Part shown: in pieces, positions 16,721 through 38,338 of the stretch | Layout: the number at the start of each line of letters is the position of its first letter | How positions within the stretch are numbered: the first letter of the stretch is position 1 | IMG/VR virus record: IMGVR_UViG_3300021426_000004 | Location: 84,118-148,117 of that record | DNA: 64,000 nt | Direction: 5' to 3' (one strand) | Source of the DNA: a virus | Lineage: Duplodnaviria; Caudoviricetes | Made by a program: the position numbers and the translations under genes | The notes under the pieces: generated by a model | The model's input: only the letters and a program-made list of their open reading frames with translations | What the model was told of the DNA's origin: nothing | Databases searched by the model: none

Positions 16721-16735
16721 AATAAAAGAGGGGAA

Positions 16736-17245
16736 ATGAAAATGAAAATTGCATTTACTGGACATCGTCCGAAAGATCTTTATGGATATTCCAGCCGTGA
16801 GCCATACATGAAGGTTATCAAGATGATTATGGATAATCTTAAGACTCTTGATGACGAGCTTGTTGTCATTACCGGTGGAGCACAAGGCGTTGATCAGCTC
16901 GCTTTCTGGTCCGCCGAACGAATGAAACGTGAAGGCTTCAATGTAAAGACTATCGTTTCGGTACCTTTTAAAGGACAGGAGCTCCGCTGGAAAGAAACTG
17001 GAATGTTTAGTCAAGCTGAATACAAACATATGCTGAAATTAGCAGATGAAGTTGTATATTTATCTGATAACAGCAACGATGCCATTCATAAGTTGGATGA
17101 AAGGAACCATTGGATGGTTGATCATTCTGACTTGCTTGTTTGTGTGACTCCGTATGATAACATTGAAACCAGACACGGAGGAACTGGAAATTGTGTTAGA
17201 TATGCAATATTGAAGAAACATAAATATACAGTCTGGAAAATTTAA
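16736..17245 (+). CDS. SLOG family (YspA/DUF1273-like) protein
   Basis: TGHRP, GGAQGVDQ, RNHWMVD and GGTGNC motifs. Confidence 0.85.
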   Translation: MKMKIAFTGHRPKDLYGYSSREPYMKVIKMIMDNLKTLDDELVVITGGAQGVDQLAFWSAERMKREGFNVKTIVSVPFKGQELRWKETGMFSQAEYKHMLKLADEVVYLSDNSNDAIHKLDERNHWMVDHSDLLVCVTPYDNIETRHGGTGNCVRYAILKKHKYTVWKI

Positions 17246-27290: not shown

Positions 27291-28122
27291 ATGAGATATT
27301 TGGTTAATGAAACTTATTATGACGATATCGACGATGTAATTAATGCTTGCATTGAAGACGATTATCATGAAGATGATGAGTACTTCGAAGAATGGCTAAA
27401 TGATGAATATGGATATATTACCATTGCCGGACAGACTTTCCATGCTTATGACATTTTGGATTCAATGAATGATTATTTGCTTGAGGAAGAACGTGACGAG
27501 TTTTGCGAGCGAATGAACGATAACGATAGGGAAGATGCAATGTACGATCTTCGACATGCTAAACCCGGTGATACTGTTTATATTCATCGTTCTGAAGTTT
27601 CGTGTGTTGAAGACGAAGAAGATGATGATGATGAAAACTACAACCGTGAAGAGAGTCTTGAAGCAGTAAGAACCTTCGTTGAAGAACAGAAACTTCTTGC
27701 TGATGCAAAAGCCGCTGAAGAAAAAGTTGAAGAAGACGACATAATGAGAATGTTTCAGGTGATTTAATATGTATTTTTCATTAACAATCAGAAATATAAG
27801 GAATCTGAAGGAATATAATAAGCTTTTAAACAGCATTAATAAATTTGATCTGATTAATTATGTTTTCGATGATGGAGAATATGAGCCGGAAAATCATCAG
27901 GCAGTGTTTTCAAGCTGGGACGAGCAAAGATGGGAAAGGCACTATGGTCAGATGATCATTCTGTCAGAAGAACATCCTACAATGACGTTTGAGCTTACCT
28001 GTCAGGATGGAATAATGTTCTGGAAAGAATATTACAAAGACGGAACTGAGGAAAATTGCTCCGGTGATGTAGTCTTTGAAACTCCCAAGAAAATCAAATG
28101 GGATTCTTTAGTAAACTTTTAA
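27291..28122 (+). other. Two hypothetical CDSs (27291-27767 very acidic; 27769-28122)
   Basis: GAGGTG RBS, tight packing. Confidence 0.7.
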
Positions 28123-28128
28123 TTATTA

Positions 28129-28170
28129 GGTACCGAACTTTGGGGACATTCGAAAAATACCGTAAAGGAG
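28129..28170 (+). promoter_or_regulatory. 42-nt phage promoter-like motif
   Basis: GGTACCGAACTTTGGGGACATTCGAAAAATACCGTAAAGGAG. Confidence 0.7.
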
Positions 28171-28177
28171 GAGTAGT

Positions 28178-28639
28178 ATGGGTCTTGATATGTATCTTAA
28201 CAAGGTGAAAAAAGAAGAGATTGCATATTGGCGTAAAGCAAATGCTATTCATGCGTGGTTTGAAAGACATTTAACGGATGATGAAAAAGGCATTGAAAAC
28301 TGCAGATCTTATTATGTTGATAAATCGCTTCTTCAAAAATTGAAAAGAGATTGTAAAACTGTTTTGAAATCTTCTGAACTTGTTTATAAGGATGTGCCAG
28401 TTAAGGAGTATGATTACGATCAGAAACAGTATGTTACGGTCACAAAACATTTGAAAGTTCTTGATGATCCAAAAGTTGCAGAGGAACTTCTGCCAACTCA
28501 GTCTGGATTCTTCTTTGGAAGCACTGAATATGATGAAGGATATGTTGAAGAACTTAAGAGTACAATTGAACAAATAGATGAAGTACTGAATACTGTGGAT
28601 TTCGACGAATATGACGTTGAATATCATGCATGGTGGTAA
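28178..28639 (+). CDS. Phage hypothetical protein
   Basis: MGLDMYL...YWRKANAIHAWF...LPTQSGFFFGS, a pattern common in phages. Confidence 0.8.
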   Translation: MGLDMYLNKVKKEEIAYWRKANAIHAWFERHLTDDEKGIENCRSYYVDKSLLQKLKRDCKTVLKSSELVYKDVPVKEYDYDQKQYVTVTKHLKVLDDPKVAEELLPTQSGFFFGSTEYDEGYVEELKSTIEQIDEVLNTVDFDEYDVEYHAWW

Positions 28640-28642
28640 TAA

Positions 28643-28830
28643 TGAACGGTGGTGGAAAAGGTAGACACTGATGGCTGGGTAAGGACAAGGCAGACTGAAA
28701 CGGCGTGAAGGTCACCAATCTTAAATCGGTAAAGACACGCCTGCTGGTACACACTAAAGCCCACGAGCCGTGAATCCGGTGATTGTTGTGTGTGCAAGTC
28801 CATGTGGGGTGCAAATCCTCACCCGTTCAA
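28643..28830 (+). ncRNA. tRNA-like RNA with expanded central domain (1)
   Basis: Acceptor TGAACGG/CCGTTCA, D-arm TGGTGGAAAAGGTAGACAC, T-arm GTGGGG-TGCAAAT-CCTCAC. Confidence 0.7.
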
Positions 28831-28864
28831 TCAATCAAACACATCTCAAAAAGGAGAAAATATT

Positions 28865-29431
28865 ATGGATTTGGGAGCCTACGCACAAATTGAAGATCTT
28901 GACAAAATCATGGTAGACAACGGAATCACCGTTCCAAGACTGCGCGGACTTAGGTTGATGAGTCAGGAAAAAGCAATTTCTGCGAACGATATTTCAGAAT
29001 CTGCCAATCAATTGGCCCTTCAAGAATGTGAATCTCTCTGTGAATCAGACTTTCGGATCAATGCCTATTGTTTCGAATGTTCAGACAGAACCCGTCGAAT
29101 CAAGCGAAAATACCTGAAGTATGACACCGATCAATTCACACCTGTCGGAGTTAGATGGGATCGTATTCATGGTAAAAAGCGCAAGAAGTTCAAGTATGTC
29201 ATCAAAAACGCTTATCGGCGCAATCGTGAACAGCTTGAATTATTCAATCGTTATTGCGGTAGGCCTGACATTCTTTATATCCATGCAAGAATTGGCGGCG
29301 GAAACTGGCCGTATTACTGTAACGAGGTGAAAGATCAGCCGTGGTTCATCTGCAGGATCGATGATGCATTTGATTCCACTTACTGTGATATTTACGCCAC
29401 GATCAAACCGCCGGAAGAAAGCAATGACTGA
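28865..29431 (+). CDS. Hypothetical protein
   Basis: AAGGAG RBS before ATG 28865; HARIGGGNW and DDAFDSTYCDIY motifs. Confidence 0.75.
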   Translation: MDLGAYAQIEDLDKIMVDNGITVPRLRGLRLMSQEKAISANDISESANQLALQECESLCESDFRINAYCFECSDRTRRIKRKYLKYDTDQFTPVGVRWDRIHGKKRKKFKYVIKNAYRRNREQLELFNRYCGRPDILYIHARIGGGNWPYYCNEVKDQPWFICRIDDAFDSTYCDIYATIKPPEESND

Positions 29432-29448
29432 TGTTCAGTAAATAATAA

Positions 29449-29559
29449 TATGCGGTGGTGGAAAAGGTAGACACGATTAGCACGGAGACATGCTTCCTGA
29501 TGCCGTGCACGGCTAAACGGAGAAAAATCCATGTGAGGTGCAAATCCTCACCCGCTTAG
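29449..29559 (+). ncRNA. tRNA-like RNA with expanded central domain (2)
   Basis: Same D-arm as copy 1; 3' end CATGTGAGGTGCAAATCCTCACCCGC. Confidence 0.7.
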
Positions 29560-29774
29560 AATTACTGTTTTGTGAGGTGCTATATGGACGAAACGACAGA
29601 TTACGACATCGAGCAAGATTTATTGGATTTAATGGTCGAGTATTTATGCGAAGATCATAGCAATGATGATTTGATATCGTTGGCAAAAAAAGCAATACAA
29701 TATTCACTAGGTGATTAAAACAACACAAAAAAGTTGGTTTGTTTTAATATAGAAGTATTTGTCGAAGATATGAG

Positions 29775-29999
29775 ATGACAATAATGGATATAATGAGTGA
29801 GTTTGTTGTTTCAAGAGGATCTGGAAAAACTGCAACCTCTTATATGATCGGTTTAAGCAAACTGTACAATTCTGGAAAAATAAGTAAAGAAGATTACTTT
29901 ACAATGAGAGGCGCAGCTTTGGTTCTTATGTTCGGGATGTCGGAAGAAGATGCTTTAAACCAGATTGCAAAAGAGCTTGAGGAAGACGATTTCAGGTAA
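29775..29999 (+). CDS. Hypothetical protein
   Basis: 74 aa ORF. Confidence 0.5.
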   Translation: MTIMDIMSEFVVSRGSGKTATSYMIGLSKLYNSGKISKEDYFTMRGAALVLMFGMSEEDALNQIAKELEEDDFR

Positions 30000-30117
30000 G
30001 TAAAGAAACTGGCAAATCTAAAAAAAGGGGGTGGTGCTATGCAGAAAGCAGTTGATGAATTTAATCGTAAATATACTGTTCCTCAGTAGCATTGCCCAAA
30101 AACAGGGCTATAAAATA

Positions 30118-30348
30118 GAGCGGTGGCGGAATAGACAGCTATCACTCCTGCGGAGAGTAGATAAGGACGTGGCTCTTATTTAAGTACACCTGATAACAGG
30201 GGCGCAGGTCACGGCTGGTAAAACAGGTTTTTTCGGATTTGTACCTGTAATAGTAGACGCTGGAACGGCAAGATTGAGTCATTATTATCCGGGGTTGTTT
30301 TAACAACCAAAAGACTGATCATGTAAGGTGCAAATCCTTACCCGCTTA
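30118..30348 (+). ncRNA. tRNA-like RNA with insertions in the D-loop and central arm (3)
   Basis: GAGCGG-TGGCGGAATAGA...AGTAGACGC...CATGTAAGGTGCAAATCCTTAC-CCGCTT. Confidence 0.65.
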
Positions 30349-30533
30349 TAAAAATTTTTAAATAATATTTTTGAAACCGCACAGCATACTATGGGAGACG
30401 GCACGGCGTAGAGTGTTTGTCAGCACTGAAACCGGGCATAAACGGATCGACCCATGCTTCAGGCGATCTTTCGGGGTTGTAAAGTCATGATCGGGTTGAC
30501 ATCCTGAATGGCTTAGTTTGACGAAGATCAACG

Positions 30534-30688
30534 CGAGTGGTGGCGGAATAGACATCGGATAAGGATGCATACGATTCCGATGGTAAAGCTGGTTCAGCAA
30601 GAGTAGACGCTTATAACGTAAGATTCCGACTTCTTGATTTCAAGAAACGTTAAGGAATCATACGAGGTGCAAATCCTCGTCCACTCAT
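30534..30688 (+). ncRNA. tRNA-like RNA with insertions in the D-loop and central arm (4)
   Basis: GAGTGG-TGGCGGAATAGA...AGTAGACGC...CATACGAGGTGCAAATCCTCGT-CCACTC. Confidence 0.65.
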
Positions 30689-30728
30689 CTTCAAACTAAA
30701 TTTCAAGAGAGGGAAAAGATGTCGCAAT

Positions 30729-30932
30729 ATGGGACTGAATAAATACGGACCAGGACGTTGGGAAGATGTCTCCAGCTGGCCACTGCCAAAGCTGGTAACG
30801 GAAATTCTTAATATCGAAAAAGAAAAAGAAAAAGAATATAAAGCATATATGCGTCGTTGTATGTTTCTTGATGAGCAATATGAAATAATTGAAAAGGAAC
30901 TTTCAAGAAGAAAGATTTATATGGATGAATAA
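30729..30932 (+). CDS. Hypothetical protein
   Basis: 67 aa ORF between RNA genes. Confidence 0.55.
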   Translation: MGLNKYGPGRWEDVSSWPLPKLVTEILNIEKEKEKEYKAYMRRCMFLDEQYEIIEKELSRRKIYMDE

Positions 30933-31005
30933 GGGGAATTAGCTCATTCAGCAGAGCACTGCCTTTGCACGGCAGAGGTGACGGGAGCAAAGCCTGTATT
31001 CTTCA
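30933..31005 (+). tRNA. tRNA-Ala(TGC), atypical T-loop
   Basis: Acceptor GGGGAAT/ATTCTTC with G3-U70; CTGCC-TTTGCAC-GGCAG; T-loop AGCAAAG. Confidence 0.75.
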
Positions 31006-31429
31006 ATTGTCCATTAGGACAGCTTTGTATAATCAGCACAAAGTAAAATAAGCTGATTGGCACAGTGAACGTGACTGTTAAAAATATGCCTGACCAGCAT
31101 ATGCCGTATTAAAGCGTGCGGTTAACGCAATCAGCCTACGCTGTGGCCGTTGATAACGGGGCTCTTATGTCTTGCAGGTAGGTATAAACCGAGTGTCTGG
31201 GCCGATGCTACTCATGCCCAGCCGAAACGCACAAAGACTTGCGCCCAGAGTAGGGGTAGGTGAACGGTAACCTGAGAGGCTGCCGACACGAAGAAGCAAG
31301 TTGCCGGATTTACATCCCTGCGGTTTTCCGGCTTTATGTCATTATCTCTAGCCTGCTAATAACGGACAGTGACTTTCAGCCAATGCCCCCTGAGCGGGCC
31401 GTAGAAGGGGGATTGGCACTTAATGATAA

Positions 31430-31732
31430 ATGAGGTATGTTATGTTTAATATAGGTGATCATGTAAGAATAAAAGAAGATGCTGATAAGATAGAATCAGG
31501 CTTTTGTTACTTTGCTGAAAGTATGAAATCATTCCTTGGACATGAAGATACTATTTGCGGAGAACCTAAGGATGGAGTTTATGCTCTTAGTAATTGTAAA
31601 AGTAGCTATATAAACTATGGACAATATGCTAATTATTACTGGTTCGATGAAAATTGGTTAGAACCAGCAGATAATATTGATTTCAGCCTCGAAGAAAATG
31701 AAATAATTGAAATGATTAAAAAGGAGGTGTAA
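31430..31732 (+). CDS. Hypothetical protein, likely paralog of 26224-26529
   Basis: Both share F..(G/N)D.VR.K...F...M..(F/Y).G...WLEPA and an acidic tail. Confidence 0.7.
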   Translation: MRYVMFNIGDHVRIKEDADKIESGFCYFAESMKSFLGHEDTICGEPKDGVYALSNCKSSYINYGQYANYYWFDENWLEPADNIDFSLEENEIIEMIKKEV

Positions 31733-31734
31733 AA

Positions 31735-32244
31735 ATGAATAATGTAAAGTATGTAGCATCATGGAGACCAGAATCTGAAAAGTATTATACTGCTGATGCG
31801 CAGAAAGTTGCAGATGAAATTTTCGCTCTTGGAAAGAATCCTGATACAAAGGAAATTCTCGATATGGCAAGGAACGAAAATACTGAAATTCACAAAATTA
31901 TTGATTGGGATGATAATTCAGCTGCTGAAAAATACAGATTGGAACAAGTACGTCATATTCAGAGAGACTTGCAAATAGTTGAAATTGGTCTCAACAAAAA
32001 GGAACCAACTAAGAAATTGGAAGTTCCTGTTCGTATGTTTTATCATTTGCATGGCGAAACTGGCTATCGCCCTACTCCTTTGATAATTCAAGACGAAGAT
32101 TTGCATAAGAAATTACTTCGCACAGCAAAGCTTGAATTGGATTCATATTTAAAGAAATATGCAATTTTAACAGAAATGCATCCTTTGATTGAAGCAATTA
32201 ATAGTAAGCTCATCGAGCTGAAAATTTTTGATGAAGTAAGTTAA
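31735..32244 (+). CDS. Partner gene upstream of the pentamer RNA array
   Basis: 169 aa, AAGGAGGTG RBS; DAQKVADE...AR.E..EIHKIIDWDDNSAAEKYRLEQVR; stop is 6 nt before the array. Confidence 0.8.
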   Translation: MNNVKYVASWRPESEKYYTADAQKVADEIFALGKNPDTKEILDMARNENTEIHKIIDWDDNSAAEKYRLEQVRHIQRDLQIVEIGLNKKEPTKKLEVPVRMFYHLHGETGYRPTPLIIQDEDLHKKLLRTAKLELDSYLKKYAILTEMHPLIEAINSKLIELKIFDEVS

Positions 32245-32250
32245 AATATA

Positions 32251-32932
32251 CCTGTCGGTCTGATTAAGGATGCAATGCATCCTAAAATAGCAAAGTGCAT
32301 CATAACTGAACACAAGTTACGATAGGACATAATAGCACAAAACATTGCATCTTTACTCAGGCCGACAGGCTAACAATAGATCATAACAGTACAACATAGA
32401 TTACTATAACTCATTTTAATACACAATTGTGCCAACTCTGCGGTTGGCATAATTGGAGACTTGTTCTCCGTAGATTAGGATAGGATAGGATAATTTATGA
32501 AATCTTTGCATGGAATAGAACATTACAGTATAAAACAAGTCTTCAATTGTGCTAATCGCACAAAGCATAATACAGGATATTCAAGAATAATACATGACGG
32601 CGTAGGACACAATAATACTACCAATCCATTTGTGTGATTGGTACAATAAGTGGCTTATCAGTCCTAAGATAACATATCGTATTTTAACACATCATAATAT
32701 AGAACATTATTGAAATAAGCTTCTTATTGTGCCAGTGGCACAAATATACAATTGCATAGCCAATAATTGAATAGAACAGGATACATTATTATAAAATACT
32801 ATAACATTAATTGAGTAATTGGTATACTAAGAAGTCTATGACTTCTTAAGTATAGAACATATCGCTCTATAATAGAATATTTCTCTATAGCATAAAATAA
32901 AACACGAATAGACTTCTTGGTGTGCCAATTGC
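32251..32932 (+). ncRNA. Array of seven 5-nt-periodic (AYA-NN) tracts held by long stems; candidate guide-RNA array
   Basis: Near-invariant A every 5 nt; 19-27 bp stems whose deviations are mostly G-U, e.g. 32439-32465/32534-32560 and 32815-32839/32908-32932. Confidence 0.85.
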
Positions 32933-32980
32933 GTAAAGAAAAGATTTAAACAAATAATAAAGATTAATAAGGAGATTATT

Positions 32981-33637
32981 ATGCCGACTAAAGCTAAAGA
33001 AAATGCAAATCTGATTGATATTGAAGCTAAGATTAAAAGGATGCTTGTTACCATTGAAGGTGAAGGCGATCTGATTCTTAATAAAATGAACGCTCGCAAT
33101 GAACGTGCACTGACTGCAGATGATCGTAAGAGCATTAAAGAAGTACCTAATTTCTGGGAAGATGTTATTACTGCAATTCATTGGCGCGATCCTCTTCCTG
33201 TAAAAGACACATATACGGAATGCAATGAAGAACTTATGCATAGTCTACTCAAAGATAACGCTCCGTCTTTAAGTGCGTTTGCGTTGAAAAGAAGTTTCTG
33301 TGATGCTGTTGTTCGTAATGAAATTGATAACTATAAAACAAAATTCGAAAATGCAATTAATGTTACATCTGAAAATGGAAGAGAACTTATTCCTATTAAG
33401 TTTGCAGGTTGGGAGGCCGAAAAGAGGCTTATGAGTCCTAAGCGTGGTAAGCCGATTAATGTTGTTCTGAATCATTTCCATAACTGGTCTGCAAAATTTA
33501 TGGTAACTTATCTGGATCATGTTTATAGTCGAGATGAGATTCTGAATATTATTAATCTTGCAGGATTCGGCCTTGGAATTGGCAGTGGTCGGACAAGCGG
33601 TTATGGTCGTTATCATATTACAAATGTTGAAGTGTAA
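32981..33637 (+). CDS. Stand-alone Cas7/RAMP-like RNA-binding protein
   Basis: VTIEGEGDLILNK first strand, LSAFALKRSFCDA helix, and C-terminal G-loop GLGIGSGRTSGYGRY typical of RAMP proteins. Confidence 0.8.
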   Translation: MPTKAKENANLIDIEAKIKRMLVTIEGEGDLILNKMNARNERALTADDRKSIKEVPNFWEDVITAIHWRDPLPVKDTYTECNEELMHSLLKDNAPSLSAFALKRSFCDAVVRNEIDNYKTKFENAINVTSENGRELIPIKFAGWEAEKRLMSPKRGKPINVVLNHFHNWSAKFMVTYLDHVYSRDEILNIINLAGFGLGIGSGRTSGYGRYHITNVEV

Positions 33638-33927
33638 TATTTTAATTATTGTATGAAAGTGTTTATATCCGGTGCTACAGCGGTTAATCTGTAGTATTTA
33701 TCGAGGATGTAGTGTAACGGTAACATAAAGGATTGTCGTTACGAAGAAGCAAAATGCCGGTTTATATATATATATATGTTTTACCGGCTTTAAACCGAAC
33801 GCCAGAGAGAGTCTGCCATCCTCTCTATCTACGGAGAACGTTATCCGGAAGGCGAGAAGACATGCGGCAGGGCAGAATGTAAGACGTGTCAGCCAGGTTT
33901 ACACACAATGCGGTTTACTGGCGTAAC

Positions 33928-34001
33928 GGGGCATTGGTTCAACGGTAAAACGGTTCCCTTGCAAGGAACGGTTAGCAGTTCGATTCTGCTATGCTCCACC
34001 A
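33928..34001 (+). tRNA. tRNA-Ala(TGC)
   Basis: GGGGCAT/ATGCTCC-A-CCA, G3-U70, GTTCC-CTTGCAA-GGAAC, T-loop TTCGATT. Confidence 0.92.
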
Positions 34002-34097
34002 CAACCGAGGGCGACGTTAGGGCGGTTGTAAAATAAACTCTGAACAAGTCCCTGTCAAAAGCCGGCAAATGTTTGACATACTTGACGTCGTAGTTAT

Positions 34098-34168
34098 CGA
34101 GGATGTGGTGTAACGGTAACACGCGTCGCTTGGGCCGACGAGTAGCAGTTCAACTCTGACATCTTCGA
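34098..34168 (+). tRNA. tRNA-Pro(TGG), apparent 8/4 fold
   Basis: CGAGGATG/CATCTTCG, CGTCG-CTTGGGC-CGACG, short T-stem GCAG-TTCAACT-CTGA. Confidence 0.7.
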
Positions 34169-34279
34169 CTTTAACCGCCGATGAGTGTCGTACGTTTTGG
34201 CCAGCCTTGCGAAAGCAAGTGGGCGGTATATAAATTGAACTCCTTGTCTGTGTGTAGGTGCGACTGCACATAGCTGTAT

Positions 34280-34363
34280 GCGGATATGGCGAAATAGGCA
34301 GCACGCTCGGGTCTTAAAAACCCGTGGGTTAATCCCGTGTGGGTTCAAGTCCCACTATCCGCA
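34280..34363 (+). tRNA. tRNA-Leu(TAA)
   Basis: GCGGATA/TATCCGC, CGGGT-CTTAAAA-ACCCG, long variable arm, GGTTCAAGTCC. Confidence 0.9.
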
Positions 34364-34458
34364 CTGCCTCTGTGCTTTTACCAGATAGCGCAGAGGACAT
34401 CGTTTATAATATCCTTTCTTGCTCCCTGACGGCCGGGAGCATAATAGACCGTCATTTT

Positions 34459-34561
34459 GCTTCTGTAACTTAATGGGAAAGTTTGGAGTGCTCCCTGAGA
34501 TAGTGGGATACAACCGGAACACATGTCAACGGTAATTCAGGTTCGAGTCCTGGCGGAAGCA
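34459..34561 (+). ncRNA. tRNA-like RNA with non-canonical anticodon domain
   Basis: Acceptor GCTTCTG/CGGAAGC, D-stem ACTT/AAGT, T-arm CAGG-TTCGAGT-CCTG, no standard anticodon arm. Confidence 0.6.
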
Positions 34562-34612
34562 CGTTTTCATACATTCAGATTAATAATTATTAAAAGAAAA
34601 GGAAGTGTCACT

Positions 34613-35145
34613 GTGAAAATTACTGGTTGGACAAATTTTGAAACTAACAAATATGAAGATGTCTTTGGTATTCCTGGAAACCCCAGACTTACAAAGAAAC
34701 AGGAAGAAGAAGTAGAAAATATTATCGTCGCTGAAATGAAGAGCAAGGGCTATAAATTCAATGGTATTTATCATCAGCAGGGTGATTTCGGCTGTCCTGT
34801 TATTGATAATAAGTATATATACGCTGTTTCTATGAGAAAATGGGGCAATCTCATGGCAAAGGTATGTGATTTGCCGGATGATGATAAACTCGCATACGTG
34901 ACATGGGCTTGGAGTACACCTGTTGGTATTACGCCTGTTTATCCGGAGGGTTAAATATGAATTCTATAGAAGAACTGGATAAATATTTTGACGTGCATCC
35001 TGAAATGAAAAAATATTGGGAAGATATAAAAGATTATATCATACACCAGCAGGATAAAATTAATTCGTTAGATGATGAGTTATTTGTGACGAGAAATGTT
35101 GGTATCAAACTTACCAGAGAATTGAAAGAACTAAAGAGTAGGTAA
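34613..35145 (+). other. Two hypothetical CDSs (34613-34954, 34957-35145)
   Basis: RBS-preceded ORFs. Confidence 0.65.
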
Positions 35146-35443
35146 TATCAGCTTCGGCTGTTATTATACAAATGGAAGGTAAGCGAATGGCAGACGTGTC
35201 AGAAAGAAAGTTCGGCAATCCGAGAATGCTCAGGCTCCAACGCCTATGCCTGATAAGAGAACACCGAGAGTGTACACAAAAACTTAGCATAAAAGAAAAC
35301 TCGGGCTAATCAAAAGAGCTTTCGCCTTTCTATTTATTATTCCGAGCCTTGCGGGATAAAACAGCTGTTAACTCCGAGGAAGACAAGTACGACGGTAATA
35401 CAGCACACATGAAGTCATGCGATAAAGGTATGGCTTCTCTTAA

Positions 35444-35517
35444 TGGGGATTCATATAACAGTAGTATACGAGACTTTGACTCTCGGAGCGAAGGGGCGGC
35501 ACCTTCATCCCCAGCCA
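35444..35517 (+). tRNA. tRNA-Gln(TTG), atypical T-loop
   Basis: TGGGGAT/ATCCCCA-G-CCA, CGAGA-CTTTGAC-TCTCG, T-loop GGCGGCA. Confidence 0.85.
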
Positions 35518-35573
35518 GATTATTAAATCAATGATTATCATATTAAAAAAATAATGAAATGGAGGGATGACAA

Positions 35574-35897
35574 ATGAGTAACTATTGTATGTACGAAGCA
35601 ATAAAAGGAAATGTTCCTGATTGTGACAGGACATGCCAGGGAGACTGCTGTGCTTATTATTACGTAGATCCTATTGCAAAAATAATAACCGAATGGAAAG
35701 CAGAAGCTGGAGTTACGGCTCCAGTTCTTTGGAAGGTTAATTACTTAAAGAACGAAATCAATATCAGCACTACAAGGCCAGGATTTCTTATTGGTGGACA
35801 CGGAAGACTCATTAATAAATATAAAAGTAAGTTCGATGAAGAGCTGCACGGAAAAATTAAGAACATTGAATTTACAGAATGTGACGATTATGCATGA
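35574..35897 (+). CDS. KH-domain (ribosomal S3-like) protein with Cys-rich N-terminus
   Basis: INISTTRPGFLIGGHGRLI resembles the type-II KH motif of uS3. Confidence 0.65.
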   Translation: MSNYCMYEAIKGNVPDCDRTCQGDCCAYYYVDPIAKIITEWKAEAGVTAPVLWKVNYLKNEINISTTRPGFLIGGHGRLINKYKSKFDEELHGKIKNIEFTECDDYA

Positions 35898-36210
35898 ATA
35901 AGATAGTGAAAGGCCGCGGCAAGCCGCGGCTTATTCGCATAATATTCCTTTTCTTTCCTGCTTTCACGTTCCCAGTATTTTCAGGATAGAAAAAGGAATT
36001 TTATATATACGGGGTGTTGCGTAAAAACTTAATTCAAACCTCGCCAGTTTGAGCCTCATACAATTCAATAGTGAGAATTTAATAATGCCTTGTGCCTTGT
36101 TAAAGACTCACCTCCTATTCATAAAGAGTTTGGATAGCAACTCTTGAAACTCTCGTGCTATCCGCTAACCATCTTATTTAAAAAATTTGATTAAGGAGCG
36201 TGATTAGAAG

Positions 36211-36819
36211 ATGGTAAAGGTTTATGTGACTACGACTGGTGGACGGAAGAGTGATCTGTTTGACGAAGGCACGACGCTGCGTGAAGTGTTTGATGCATTT
36301 GATATCGACTATTCCGTTGCGACAAACACTATCGACGGTACAAGGATTGATCCTGCCGGGATGGACAAGTCTCTTCGTGACTGGGGAGTGAAGGATGAGT
36401 GCCGTATGTCCTCTATTGTTAAGATCGACAATGCGGCTCATATCGACATTTCCGGTGGTTCTGCTGTCCTGGTATCTGATGTCTCCAGGGAAGATTGGGA
36501 ACGTGTTGAGAAGTATGCGCCTGAAATGCTGAAGATGATTGACGATGAAGGTAACGCAGTCTTCAAGGTAAAGATTGGCTGCGGAGGAGGATCTGTTAAT
36601 AAGTATGGTGTGTGCTTCGGTTCTCATACGAATGAAGGCGGCAAGGCGACCGTTACTGTGATTCTGGATTATGAAGTTGAAGATAAGATTGCCGCTGTGA
36701 AGGATGTTATGGGTTCCGCTCTGCTGGATCTGAACGAGATCGAGAAGGAACTGCCGACTGTGCTGAAGGATATTGCTGACAAAGAAGCGGAGATTAACAA
36801 GCTTATTACGCTGAAGTAA
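36211..36819 (+). CDS. Ubiquitin-like (beta-grasp) domain with C-terminal extension
   Basis: First ~75 aa (VKVYVTT...TTLREVF...DKSLRDWGV...IVKIDNA) resemble Ubl; leads the E2/JAB/E1 operon. Confidence 0.65.
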   Translation: MVKVYVTTTGGRKSDLFDEGTTLREVFDAFDIDYSVATNTIDGTRIDPAGMDKSLRDWGVKDECRMSSIVKIDNAAHIDISGGSAVLVSDVSREDWERVEKYAPEMLKMIDDEGNAVFKVKIGCGGGSVNKYGVCFGSHTNEGGKATVTVILDYEVEDKIAAVKDVMGSALLDLNEIEKELPTVLKDIADKEAEINKLITLK

Positions 36820-36895
36820 TCTCCAAAACTAAAGACAACAAGGGGCTGGAACGATTATGATCCAGCCCCTTTTTTAACTAAGGAGATTAAAAAAT

Positions 36896-38338
36896 ATGTT
36901 TCGTGATTTACTTAATAATCCCATCGATCCCATCCCGATTGATTATATCAATACGCTGAGCAGACCGACAAAAGAAGTTGATATGACGTTAACTCATATC
37001 GGTATTGCCATGCTTCGGCCGAGAATTGAAAATTATACTGGCATCACTGGATGCTATCAAACTCTTTCAGAGGAATCAGCTTGTGTAAACGATTTTCTGA
37101 CTAATCAGTATCCGAAACTCGATAATGCACCAATGCTGTGTTATTATGTTTACAGGAATAAAAATGCTGATGGCGCTTCTGAAAAGCTGCTTAAAGAAAG
37201 TGGTTTTGAACTTAAGGAAAACATTTCCACGCTTATGGCTACAAAAGGAAATGTGAAATGTATTGCTGCGTATCATCCTGTAAAGAACTGCGCCGCCTTA
37301 TTTGTGAATTCTAACGATATTCGTTTCTATCATATGTTAATCTCGTTTGTTTCTCTGCTTTGGCCTAGCCTGTTCAAAGATAAACCTTTAACAGAACAGG
37401 ATTATAACATTGTCAAGGCTCTTGGGAAAACCGACAAGAACACTTTTATCCAGCAAATTCAGACAAGCATCGCACCTTACATTGTTGAATTCAGGAAGAT
37501 GATGCTTGCTACACTGCTTAAGAATATTCATCAGACTAAAATCGAAAGCGCAAAGCATGATGTAGCAGGACAGCGTCAGTATGTTGAAAAGGTAGCAAAC
37601 GATTATGATGAAGCTATGAAACGGCTGAAAACCCTCATTGTAACTTATGAAGGACTGAAAGCAACTGAATCTTTCGATGAGGTTGAGGAAGATTTGATTG
37701 AATATCTCTCTACCAAGAAAGAGCTGCATAATCTTAGTGTTGTAGGTCAGGAGATTACTTTCAGCGTTGCAACATTACTGAATAATTACAATGCAGATGC
37801 GTGGAGGATATTCTCTGAACGTGGTTCTATTTATGACGGAGAATATGGTCCGGAAGCGAATCCTTCAAACATTCAGCTTCTTGATGTATTCAAAGATAAA
37901 ACGAATCGCAAGATCTTCCTTGATAATGTGTTCTCTGAATCGCCTGACTTTGCGATTAAGATCGCTGGTAATTACAGGCTTGATCTTTATGGATGCAATG
38001 TAAGGAGCGAAAGAGGATATAATTATATTGCCGCAGATCCTGTTTATACTTCATATATTCCTAATCCGCATCTTAAGATTTTCTCGTGTCTTGGCGGTTA
38101 TGAAACAAGGATTAATCGTGCGCTTCGTGATCGTAATTATGTTGCGGCTGTTGAACTTTGCTGTACCTCTGCAGGTTCTGTAGATCTTGATGAAACTGCA
38201 CAGACATTTCGTCCGTTCCTTGGATGGATTCTGACAAGCCGTGAAAAGATTATGCACAGGCGGGATGGTGTAGATATGACACCAGAAGAAGCGCTGATTT
38301 GGCTGATTGATAAGGAGAAGAAGAATGAAACCAATTAA
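36896..38338 (+). CDS. Coiled-coil protein with putative E2-like C-terminal domain
   Basis: PNPHLKIFSCLGGY resembles the bacterial E2 PH...CLG signature; lies between Ubl and JAB. Confidence 0.55.
   Translation: MFRDLLNNPIDPIPIDYINTLSRPTKEVDMTLTHIGIAMLRPRIENYTGITGCYQTLSEESACVNDFLTNQYPKLDNAPMLCYYVYRNKNADGASEKLLKESGFELKENISTLMATKGNVKCIAAYHPVKNCAALFVNSNDIRFYHMLISFVSLLWPSLFKDKPLTEQDYNIVKALGKTDKNTFIQQIQTSIAPYIVEFRKMMLATLLKNIHQTKIESAKHDVAGQRQYVEKVANDYDEAMKRLKTLIVTYEGLKATESFDEVEEDLIEYLSTKKELHNLSVVGQEITFSVATLLNNYNADAWRIFSERGSIYDGEYGPEANPSNIQLLDVFKDKTNRKIFLDNVFSESPDFAIKIAGNYRLDLYGCNVRSERGYNYIAADPVYTSYIPNPHLKIFSCLGGYETRINRALRDRNYVAAVELCCTSAGSVDLDETAQTFRPFLGWILTSREKIMHRRDGVDMTPEEALIWLIDKEKKNETN

What the first reader, a model, noticed from the sequence alone, without database searches (positions are those of the whole stretch)
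32276..32905. The variable NN dinucleotides may spell gapped targets that skip every third base
Seen: NN values are T1 TC AA GC GT TC AC AC AG CG GG TA GC AA TT; T2 CA GA TA GT AC GA CT AC TT AT CA; T3 GA GG GG GG AT TG TC GC GA GA TT GT AA; T4 GC AT GG TT GA AT TG GC GG CA AT AC TC; T5 AG AC TC TT AC TC AT GA TT GA; T6 AT CA GC GC TA GA GA GG CA TT AA CT AC AA; T7 GT GA TA CT TA GA TT CT GC AA AA CG. All seven differ, as spacers do. Inference: read as NNx codons, T7 gives V[DE]YLY[DE][FL]LA[KN][KN]R and T6 gives [IM][QH]AAY[DE][DE]G[QH][FL][KN]LT[KN]; T3 resembles a Shine-Dalgarno plus start codon (GAxGGxGGxGGxATx). Ignoring wobble positions would resist synonymous escape. Protein-likeness was judged by eye only, and I saw no self-match in this window.
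Basis: inference. Interest (0 to 1): 0.85.

Follow-up and report, generated by a model that had tools for sequence, protein, structure and literature searches.

The report
Phage VIPR guides, A-Y-A scaffold
The variable letter pairs in this gut phage's five-base repeats do spell DNA targets that skip every third base: two of the seven guides read conserved codons of replication genes in rival phages, which is the VIPR mechanism published in 2026, written here on an unusual A-Y-A scaffold.

Summary
The locus is a VIPR system (bioRxiv 10.64898/2026.04.26.720920 and .720927). It has a lone Cas7-like RAMP gene (32981-33637), an accessory gene (31735-32244) and seven pentamer guide tracts whose NN pairs read a DNA target with one base skipped.

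All 87 NN values reproduce. Read as NNx, T4 matches 21 of 22 bases of a YpsA/SLOG gene motif. T6 matches 24 of 26 bases of a Gp2.5-like single-strand-binding gene motif. Both hits are in frame, with the skipped base on the wobble position, and in one rival phage contig they lie 2.7 kb apart. Gaps of 0, 2 and 3 give only chance-level matches.

Across 248 related tracts, 19 reach at least 90% NN match at gap 1 (0.1 expected) and none at any other gap. No target was found in the phage's own genome. T1, T2, T3, T5 and T7 have no target yet, and the Shine-Dalgarno reading of T3 has no support.

The new elements are the A-Y-A scaffold in place of GGY, a different accessory gene and a stem-interleaved array. 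This scan has already reported A-Y-A or A-C-A VIPR variants in at least six other genomes.

The parts
31735..32244 (+). Accessory gene (candidate vap), 169 aa. It ends a few bases before the first stem of the array.
   Evidence: The ORF is listed. It matches phrog_15946 at E 2.5e-13 and has no Pfam family. A homologous gene end sits directly upstream of the array in related loci. It shows no similarity to the 146-aa SUSP1 neighbour gene, presumably vap1.
32251..32930 (+). vrRNA array: seven A-Y-A/NN tracts interleaved with four long stems and short hairpins
   Evidence: The inverted repeats are 32251-77/32343-69, 32439-65/32534-60, 32628-58/32715-45 and 32817-39/32908-30. The RNA fold gives -193.8 kcal/mol against -127.5 +/- 6.5 for shuffles, z = -10.2. 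The stems are at least 97% conserved in relatives while the tracts are replaced.
32277..32346 (+). T1, 14 pentamers, closed by a long stem; target not found
32371..32425 (+). T2, 11 pentamers; target not found
32470..32534 (+). T3, 13 pentamers, closed by a long stem; target not found
32562..32626 (+). T4. The effective guide is the first 11 pentamers (32562-32616). It reads a conserved motif of YpsA/SLOG genes of rival (pro)phages.
   Evidence: The match is 21/22 NN bases at gap 1, in frame and in sense, in G006, G007 and G008. The target family is PF06908, E 3e-21. 0 of 200 shuffles reach the observed match. The same NN string is conserved in L001 and L043 with diverged triplets.
32664..32713 (+). 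T5, 10 pentamers, closed by a long stem; target not found
32741..32810 (+). T6. The effective guide is the first 13 pentamers (32741-32805). It reads a conserved motif of Gp2.5/Enc34-like ssDNA-binding protein genes of rival phages.
   Evidence: The best match is 24/26, with 18/18 over the first nine NN. The target family is PF10991, E 1e-68, and phrog_112. The site is in frame. 37 of 83 records reach at least 23/26.
32847..32906 (+). T7, 12 pentamers, closed by a long stem; target not found
32981..33637 (+). vipr-like gene: lone Cas7-like RAMP of 218 aa with a glycine-rich C-terminal loop
   Evidence: Pfam RAMPs gives E 0.019, below the cut-off. The G-loop is invariant in 29 homologues. The AF2 model has pLDDT 83, and all top Foldseek PDB hits are type III Cas7 proteins (Cmr4, Csm3), E 1.8e-4 and TM about 0.4. 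There are more than 2000 homologues, and A-Y-A tracts lie next to the gene in most of 170 fetched loci.

Best explanation
The region is the guide-RNA array of a VIPR system (Viral Interference Programmable Repeat). By analogy with the published system, the array would be transcribed with its two flanking genes. Copies of the Cas7-like Vipr protein would then line up along each tract, one per five bases, holding the A-Y-A triplet and presenting the two variable bases. The presented pairs would read double-stranded DNA with one target base skipped between successive pairs, so that a guide of 10-14 pentamers reads the first two letters of 10-14 consecutive codons. Binding would silence the gene. 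Shown here: the 1-base-skip match, the codon register, the gene families hit, and the absence of self-targets. In this phage T4 is aimed at a YpsA/SLOG gene and T6 at a Gp2.5-like ssDNA-binding gene of a widespread group of rival, partly temperate phages. Inferred from the preprints and not tested here: transcription, filament assembly, DNA binding through an R-loop triplex, and silencing.
For: 1. Protein. The 218-aa protein is a lone Cas7-like RAMP fold with a G-loop.
2. Conserved module. A-Y-A/NN tracts lie beside this gene, on its strand, in most of 170 related loci. Over 1950 pentamers in 162 tracts, position 3 is A in 97% of cases, and tracts most often hold 10-13 pentamers.
3. Information sits in NN. 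34 unique tract pairs share at least 7 NN, against 1.8 in shuffles, often with the triplets randomised. For example, L001:2493 and L043:2902 share 8/8 NN with 10/24 triplet mismatches.
4. Skip rule in this window. T4 reaches 21/26 and T6 24/28 at gap 1. Gaps 0, 2 and 3 give 18-20, which is the null level, and 0 of 200 shuffles reach the observed values.
5. Convergence. In G007 the two targets lie 2.7 kb apart on one strand.
6. Family-wide test. Of 248 tracts searched against 1.5 Mb of rival loci, 31 reach at least 85% NN match at gap 1 against 2.2 expected. The other gaps give 7/3.1, 5/4.0 and 1/3.9 (observed/expected). At 90% or more, gap 1 gives 19 against 0.1 expected, and the other gaps give 0.
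7. Codon register. The skipped base is on codon position 3 in 28 of 31 hits. At the T6 site diversity is 0.49 at the wobble position against 0.17 and 0.05 at positions 1 and 2.
8. No self-target reaches 80%, as in the preprint.
9. NN usage fits sense-strand codon positions 1-2 better than any other parameter-free model.
10. Published mechanism. I located the SUSP1 GGY/NN tracts myself.
Against: - Five of the seven guides have no target in what I could search.
- Nothing shows that the array is transcribed or bound by the protein.
- Sequence similarity to the published SUSP1 Vipr is weak: hhalign aligns only the C-terminal 50 columns, P 7.5e-4, probability 25%. A profile search of the SUSP1 genome found nothing.
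- The accessory gene is unrelated to the 146-aa SUSP1 neighbour gene, presumably vap1.
- The host is unknown, so co-infection with the targeted phages is not shown. Those phages have 40-57% GC against 39% here.
- The T4 target was found with a degenerate pattern built from three family variants, and 2 of its 5 hits were chance hits.
Confidence: 0.9

Rival explanations
1. The RNA is a protein-binding scaffold or decoy of the TRAP kind. A ring or filament protein would read the A-Y-A triplets, and the NN pairs would be unconstrained linkers carrying no information. This was my own first reading.
For: Positions 4 and 5 have near-background composition. The tracts are hypervariable between close relatives. 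The NN order shows no tandem-duplication signature.
Against: NN strings are conserved between distant arrays while the triplets drift. NN strings match real genes, in frame, at gap 1 only.
Confidence: 0.02
2. These are guide RNAs, but they use another rule: a skip of 0, 2 or 3 bases, or pairing with messenger RNA instead of DNA.
For: Cas7 relatives of type III CRISPR systems act on RNA. My searches covered little sequence for T1, T2, T3, T5 and T7.
Against: Gaps 0, 2 and 3 stay at the null level both for the window and for 248 family tracts. Successive NN pairs are nearly independent, which argues against a contiguous source. In 26 of 31 strong hits the guide has the sense of the coding strand, so it cannot pair with the mRNA and must pair with the template DNA strand.
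Confidence: 0.03
3. The T4 and T6 matches are chance, or the array is a decayed relic that no longer works.
For: The window's triplets are less regular than those of relatives such as L004 and L005. Five guides lack targets. Exact scans with T7, the full T4 and T6 strings, and T2 found nothing.
Against: 0 of 200 shuffles reach the observed match for T4 or for T6. The two guides hit the same contig independently. 301 sampled bacterial genomes gave no T6 match and no reversed-control match. The stems are held at 97% identity or more, which indicates purifying selection. The same phage assembled from another metagenome carries an identical array.
Confidence: 0.05

Closest known systems
Type II VIPR of Escherichia phage SUSP1 and a Pseudomonas fulva prophage (bioRxiv 10.64898/2026.04.26.720920; structures in 10.64898/2026.04.26.720927)
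   Same: Both are phage-borne. Both have a lone RAMP gene plus one accessory gene, guide tracts of about 9-16 pentamers with three fixed and two variable bases, a target read with one base skipped and aligned to wobble positions, no self-targets, and targets in competing phages.
   Different: The fixed triplet is A-Y-A (A-C-A in relatives) rather than GGY. The protein is only weakly alignable to the SUSP1 protein. The accessory gene is unrelated to the 146-aa SUSP1 neighbour gene, presumably vap1. All seven tracts lie between the two genes and are interleaved with 23-31-nt (arm length) long-range stems. In SUSP1 one tract lies upstream and three downstream, each with its own 3' tail.
Divergent VIPR clusters with non-canonical repeat units (bioRxiv 10.64898/2026.10.21.760802)
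   Same: These are 5-nt periodic arrays next to a Vipr-like fold, with fixed triplets other than GGY. The preprint reports 21 clusters and 6,318 sequences.
   Different: The examples named in the text are GAC, CAC, WGT and TGH. A-Y-A or A-C-A is not named in the text I could read, and that preprint reports no natural targets for the variants.
SUSP1 VIPR against its satellite (bioRxiv 10.64898/2026.10.15.759431)
   Same: The skipped wobble positions are the most variable part of the target site, and codon position 2 is nearly invariant, so escape requires amino-acid changes. The T6 site shows the same pattern.
   Different: There the target is a satellite recombinase. Here the targets are SSB and YpsA genes, and across the family also DNA polymerase A and a DUF2800 nuclease.
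Cas7 backbone of class 1 CRISPR effectors (Csm3, Cmr4)
   Same: The RAMP fold and G-loop are shared. One protein copy is bound per fixed step along the guide RNA.
   Different: The step is 5 nt rather than 6 nt. The scaffold bases are sequence-specific. Only 2 of 5 bases read the target. There is no CRISPR array and there are no other cas genes.
TRAP (trp RNA-binding attenuation protein) sites
   Same: Triplets are separated by 2-nt spacers, with about 11 repeats. This comparison is from my own knowledge.
   Different: In TRAP sites the spacers carry no information. Here the 2-nt units carry it.

Membership tests
VIPR system | Lone Vipr protein: a minimal RAMP with an RRM core, a G-loop and a thumb | tested here: met
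   The AF2 model has pLDDT 83, and all top Foldseek hits are Cas7-type RAMPs. The glycine-rich loop is invariant. No other cas gene was seen among the ORFs listed for the 9 kb around the locus, 28000-37000.
VIPR system | Sequence homology to a published Vipr (SUSP1) | tested here: inconclusive
   hhalign aligns only the C-terminal G-loop region, P 7.5e-4, probability 25%. The profile search of the SUSP1 genome was empty. The SUSP1 protein could not be folded with these tools.
VIPR system | vrRNA of tandem pentamers with a fixed triplet and variable NN, 9-16 units | tested here: met
   There are seven tracts of 10-14 units, and the family-wide mode is 10-13.
VIPR system | The fixed triplet is GGY or one of the published alternatives (NNNGG, YNNNG, NNNNG) | tested here: not met
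   The triplet is A-Y-A, with G below 7% at each of the three fixed positions. This is why I class the locus as a variant.
VIPR system | NN pairs match natural targets with exactly one skipped base | tested here: met
   Shown for T4 and T6 and for 248 family tracts.
VIPR system | The skipped base aligns with codon wobble positions | tested here: met
   28 of 31 strong hits. The T4 and T6 sites are in frame. Diversity at the T6 site is 0.49 at the wobble position against 0.05-0.17 at the others.
VIPR system | No self-targeting at 80% NN match or more | tested here: met
   The best own-genome matches are 64-73%.
VIPR system | Accessory vap gene in the locus | tested here: inconclusive
   A conserved 169-aa gene precedes the array, but it is unrelated to the 146-aa SUSP1 neighbour gene, presumably vap1. 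The sequences of vap2-6 were not available.
VIPR system | vrRNAs are expressed and co-purify with Vipr; the complex binds dsDNA and represses transcription | not testable with these tools
   This needs small-RNA sequencing, pull-down, binding and reporter assays.
CRISPR-Cas | An array of identical direct repeats with contiguous spacers, plus adaptation genes | tested here: not met
   Only degenerate hairpins and non-identical stems are present. No Rfam family other than tRNA reached its threshold.

The most novel reading that the evidence does not exclude
The A-Y-A/A-C-A systems may form a distinct, not yet described VIPR type. Its features would be a scaffold triplet without guanine (which implies a different protein-RNA lock), its own accessory protein, stem-interleaved arrays whose guide cassettes are shuffled between slots and phages, and a strong preference for guides in the sense of the coding strand. 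The type has over 2000 members in gut and rumen phages. Many of its guides are aimed at one replication module of a widespread rival phage group: a DUF2800 nuclease, a Gp2.5-like SSB and a family A DNA polymerase, plus YpsA.
Probability: 0.55. Interest if true: 0.6.

Novelty: new variant of a known kind. Interest (0 to 1): 0.45.

Why it matters
The finding shows independently, from natural sequences alone, that the noncontiguous '1 base skipped' code holds for a VIPR family whose scaffold triplet shares no letter with the published GGY. The code therefore appears to belong to the protein filament and not to the GGY motif. It also names concrete natural targets, rival-phage SSB and YpsA genes, which gives ready-made substrates for testing this variant. 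Finally, it suggests that a large group of uncultured gut and rumen phages uses such guides against one another's replication genes.

Tried and rejected
- TRAP-like scaffold with meaningless NN. This was my first reading. I rejected it after the NN conservation and target results.
- Slippage as the origin of the tracts. Neighbouring NN pairs are not repeated more often than in shuffles.
- Contiguous (gap 0) source. Successive NN pairs are nearly independent.
- Self or cis targets. None turned up in the own genome or in the 3-kb flanks of about 170 related loci. The only enrichment, at gap 3, came from unmasked homologous tracts.
- Exact gap-1 scans of IMG/VR with T4, T7, T6 (12 NN) and T2. All gave 0 hits. 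Exact full-length patterns are too strict, because the real matches carry 1-3 mismatches.
- T4 in five metagenome-assembled genomes that carry related loci: 0 hits.
- T6 in 301 genomes sampled from the class of one such genome: 0 hits.
- T1, T2, T3, T5 and T7 against eight whole rival records and 80 SSB neighbourhoods: null level.
- BLAST of the array and of the protein against cultured phages. There were no useful hits, only a weak G-loop match in two Gordonia phages.
- PDB sequence search with the family profile: nothing.
I redid it by reference.

Full report
**Observation.** The region 32277-32906 on the + strand holds seven tracts built of five-base units. Position 1 of the unit is A in 69%, position 2 is T or C in 89%, and position 3 is A in 89%. 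Positions 4 and 5 are close to background composition. A run of such units occurs nowhere else in the 64-kb window and not on the other strand. Four inverted repeats with arms of 23-31 nt close tracts T1, T3, T5 and T7; T2, T4 and T6 lie between these stem-loops. As RNA the region folds at -193.8 kcal/mol, against -127.5 +/- 6.5 for shuffles. No Rfam family other than tRNA reaches its threshold in the window.

**Surroundings.** The array lies between a 169-aa gene (31735-32244; phrog_15946, no Pfam family) and a 218-aa gene (32981-33637) with a sub-threshold Pfam RAMP match. The 218-aa protein has over 2000 homologues and an invariant glycine-rich C-terminal loop. Its AlphaFold model (pLDDT 83) finds only Cas7-type RAMPs of type III CRISPR systems at the top of the PDB list. 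I fetched 170 related loci from viral contigs, genomes and metagenomes. Most carry A-Y-A or crisp A-C-A pentamer tracts beside the gene, on its strand. Over 1950 pentamers in 162 tracts, position 3 is A in 97%, and tracts most often have 10-13 units.

**Is the information in NN?** My first reading was a TRAP-like scaffold with meaningless spacers. The comparative data contradict it.
- In a cluster of related phages the stems are at least 97% identical in all 210 pairs. The tracts between them are either nearly identical or unrelated, and they combine as a mosaic.
- The window's closest relatives (75% protein identity) keep the stems and have unrelated tracts.
- 34 pairs of unique tracts share at least 7 NN in register, against 1.8 in shuffles, and in many of these pairs the fixed triplets have drifted to background. 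One example is 8/8 NN shared with 10 of 24 triplet bases different.
- The window's T4 shares its NN string with tracts in L001 and L043, where the tract sits in a different slot of the array.
- NN usage fits sense-strand codon positions 1-2 better than any other parameter-free model. It is only moderately better than coding-strand dinucleotides, so I treat this as consistent and not decisive.
- Successive NN pairs are almost independent, which argues against a contiguous source.

**Literature.** A search of papers and of this scan's own notes led to the VIPR preprints.
- VIPR systems consist of a lone ancestral RAMP (Vipr), an accessory gene and vrRNAs of 9-16 GGY/NN pentamers.
- The NN pairs specify double-stranded DNA with one target base skipped. 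The skipped base mostly falls on wobble positions.
- The targets lie in competing phages, satellites and prophages, and there are no self-targets at 80% NN match or more.
- Structures show the filament holding GGY and presenting NN.
- A later preprint makes the escape-resistance argument explicitly.
- Another reports 21 clusters with non-canonical triplets, naming GAC, CAC, WGT and TGH.
- A-Y-A is not named in any text I could read. No supplementary file is held as text for the main VIPR preprint, the figures are not held, and I did not look for supplements of the other preprints.
- I located the SUSP1 locus myself: GGY/NN tracts at about 27.6-28.0 kb and 29.2 kb, flanking two genes.
- The family profile aligns to the SUSP1 195-aa protein only over the C-terminal G-loop, with P 7.5e-4.
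- The accessory genes are unrelated.

**Direct test of the gapped code.** In the phage's own 148-kb genome no gap size from 0 to 3 beats shuffled dinucleotides, and the best gap-1 matches are 64-73%. The same holds for 248 family tracts searched against the flanks of related loci. Exact full-length scans of IMG/VR failed.

A degenerate gap-1 pattern built from the three T4-family variants gave five hits.
- Three of them lie in frame, in sense, in homologous YpsA/SLOG genes (PF06908) at the motif GCAMGVDIWAGQI.
- The other two are one chance sequence found twice.

The window's T4 matches 21 of 22 bases there. Searching the three records that hold these genes with T6 gave a hit in one of them (G007), 2.7 kb from the T4 site and on the same strand. 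The hit is in frame in a Gp2.5/Enc34-like ssDNA-binding gene (PF10991, E 1e-68).

In 80 further neighbourhoods of that gene, T6 reaches 24/26 at best and at least 23/26 in 37 of 83 records, at the motif IQAAYEEGQSKLK. Across 58 distinct site sequences, diversity is 0.49 at the skipped positions against 0.17 and 0.05 at codon positions 1 and 2. Gaps 0, 2 and 3 stay at the null level, and 0 of 200 shuffles reach the observed values for T4 or T6.

Family-wide, 31 of 248 tracts reach at least 85% NN match at gap 1, against 2.2 expected. 19 reach at least 90%, against 0.1 expected, and no tract reaches 90% at any other gap. In 28 of 31 strong hits the skipped base is on codon position 3, and in 26 of 31 the guide has the sense of the coding strand. 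The three exceptions include T6, where my longest-ORF rule picked a spurious frame.

The genes hit across the family include the SSB, a family A DNA polymerase and a DUF2800 PD-(D/E)XK nuclease. A sample of 301 bacterial genomes gave no T6 match and no control match.

**Self versus rival.** The phage has its own YpsA homologue (window 16733-17236, 30% identity). Its motif differs, and T4 does not match it. It has no Gp2.5-like SSB.

**Limits.**
- T1, T2, T3, T5 and T7 have no target in eight whole rival records or in the 80 neighbourhoods.
- Expression, protein binding and silencing are inferred from the preprints.
- The host is unknown.
- The reading of T3 as a ribosome-binding site has no support.

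**Verdict.** The mechanism is already known from 2026 preprints. The locus is a variant with an A-Y-A scaffold, and this scan had already met that variant in at least six other genomes.

Noticed in passing
window 16733-17236 (+): The phage carries its own YpsA/SLOG-family gene, 30% identical to the rival-phage gene that T4 targets. Its motif reads differently, so T4 spares it.
   Followed up: partly
L001:2712-2771 versus window 32562-32616: The same NN string (T4 family) sits in different slots of the stem framework in different phages, and its fixed triplets are largely different. Guide cassettes therefore move or are rebuilt independently of the stems.
   Followed up: partly
L013-L045 cluster, 400 nt upstream of the RAMP gene: The stems flanking the tracts are at least 97% identical even where third codon positions of the neighbouring gene are only 60-90% identical. 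The stems are thus under stronger constraint than protein-coding sequence.
   Followed up: partly
L232:8677-12889 and homologous loci L189-L268: The rival phages share one module: a DUF2800 PD-(D/E)XK nuclease, a Gp2.5-like SSB and a family A DNA polymerase. Many guides from different A-Y-A VIPR phages converge on it. One polymerase motif is matched, to within one NN base of the best score, in 61 records.
   Followed up: partly
family-wide: 26 of 31 strong guide-target pairs have the guide in the sense of the coding strand, whereas the preprint reports targets on both strands. NN composition shows the same sense bias.
   Followed up: partly
window 30933-31005, 33928-34001, 34098-34169, 34280-34364: Four tRNA genes (Ala, Ala, Pro, Leu) flank the VIPR locus within 2 kb on either side.
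   Followed up: no
L165:1239 and L165:1362: Two tracts of one array share 7 of 16 NN in register, a possible recent duplication of a guide within an array.
   Followed up: no
L070, L071, L057, L059, L073: In some relatives, tracts also lie downstream of the RAMP gene, and arrays reach about 10 tracts.
   Followed up: no
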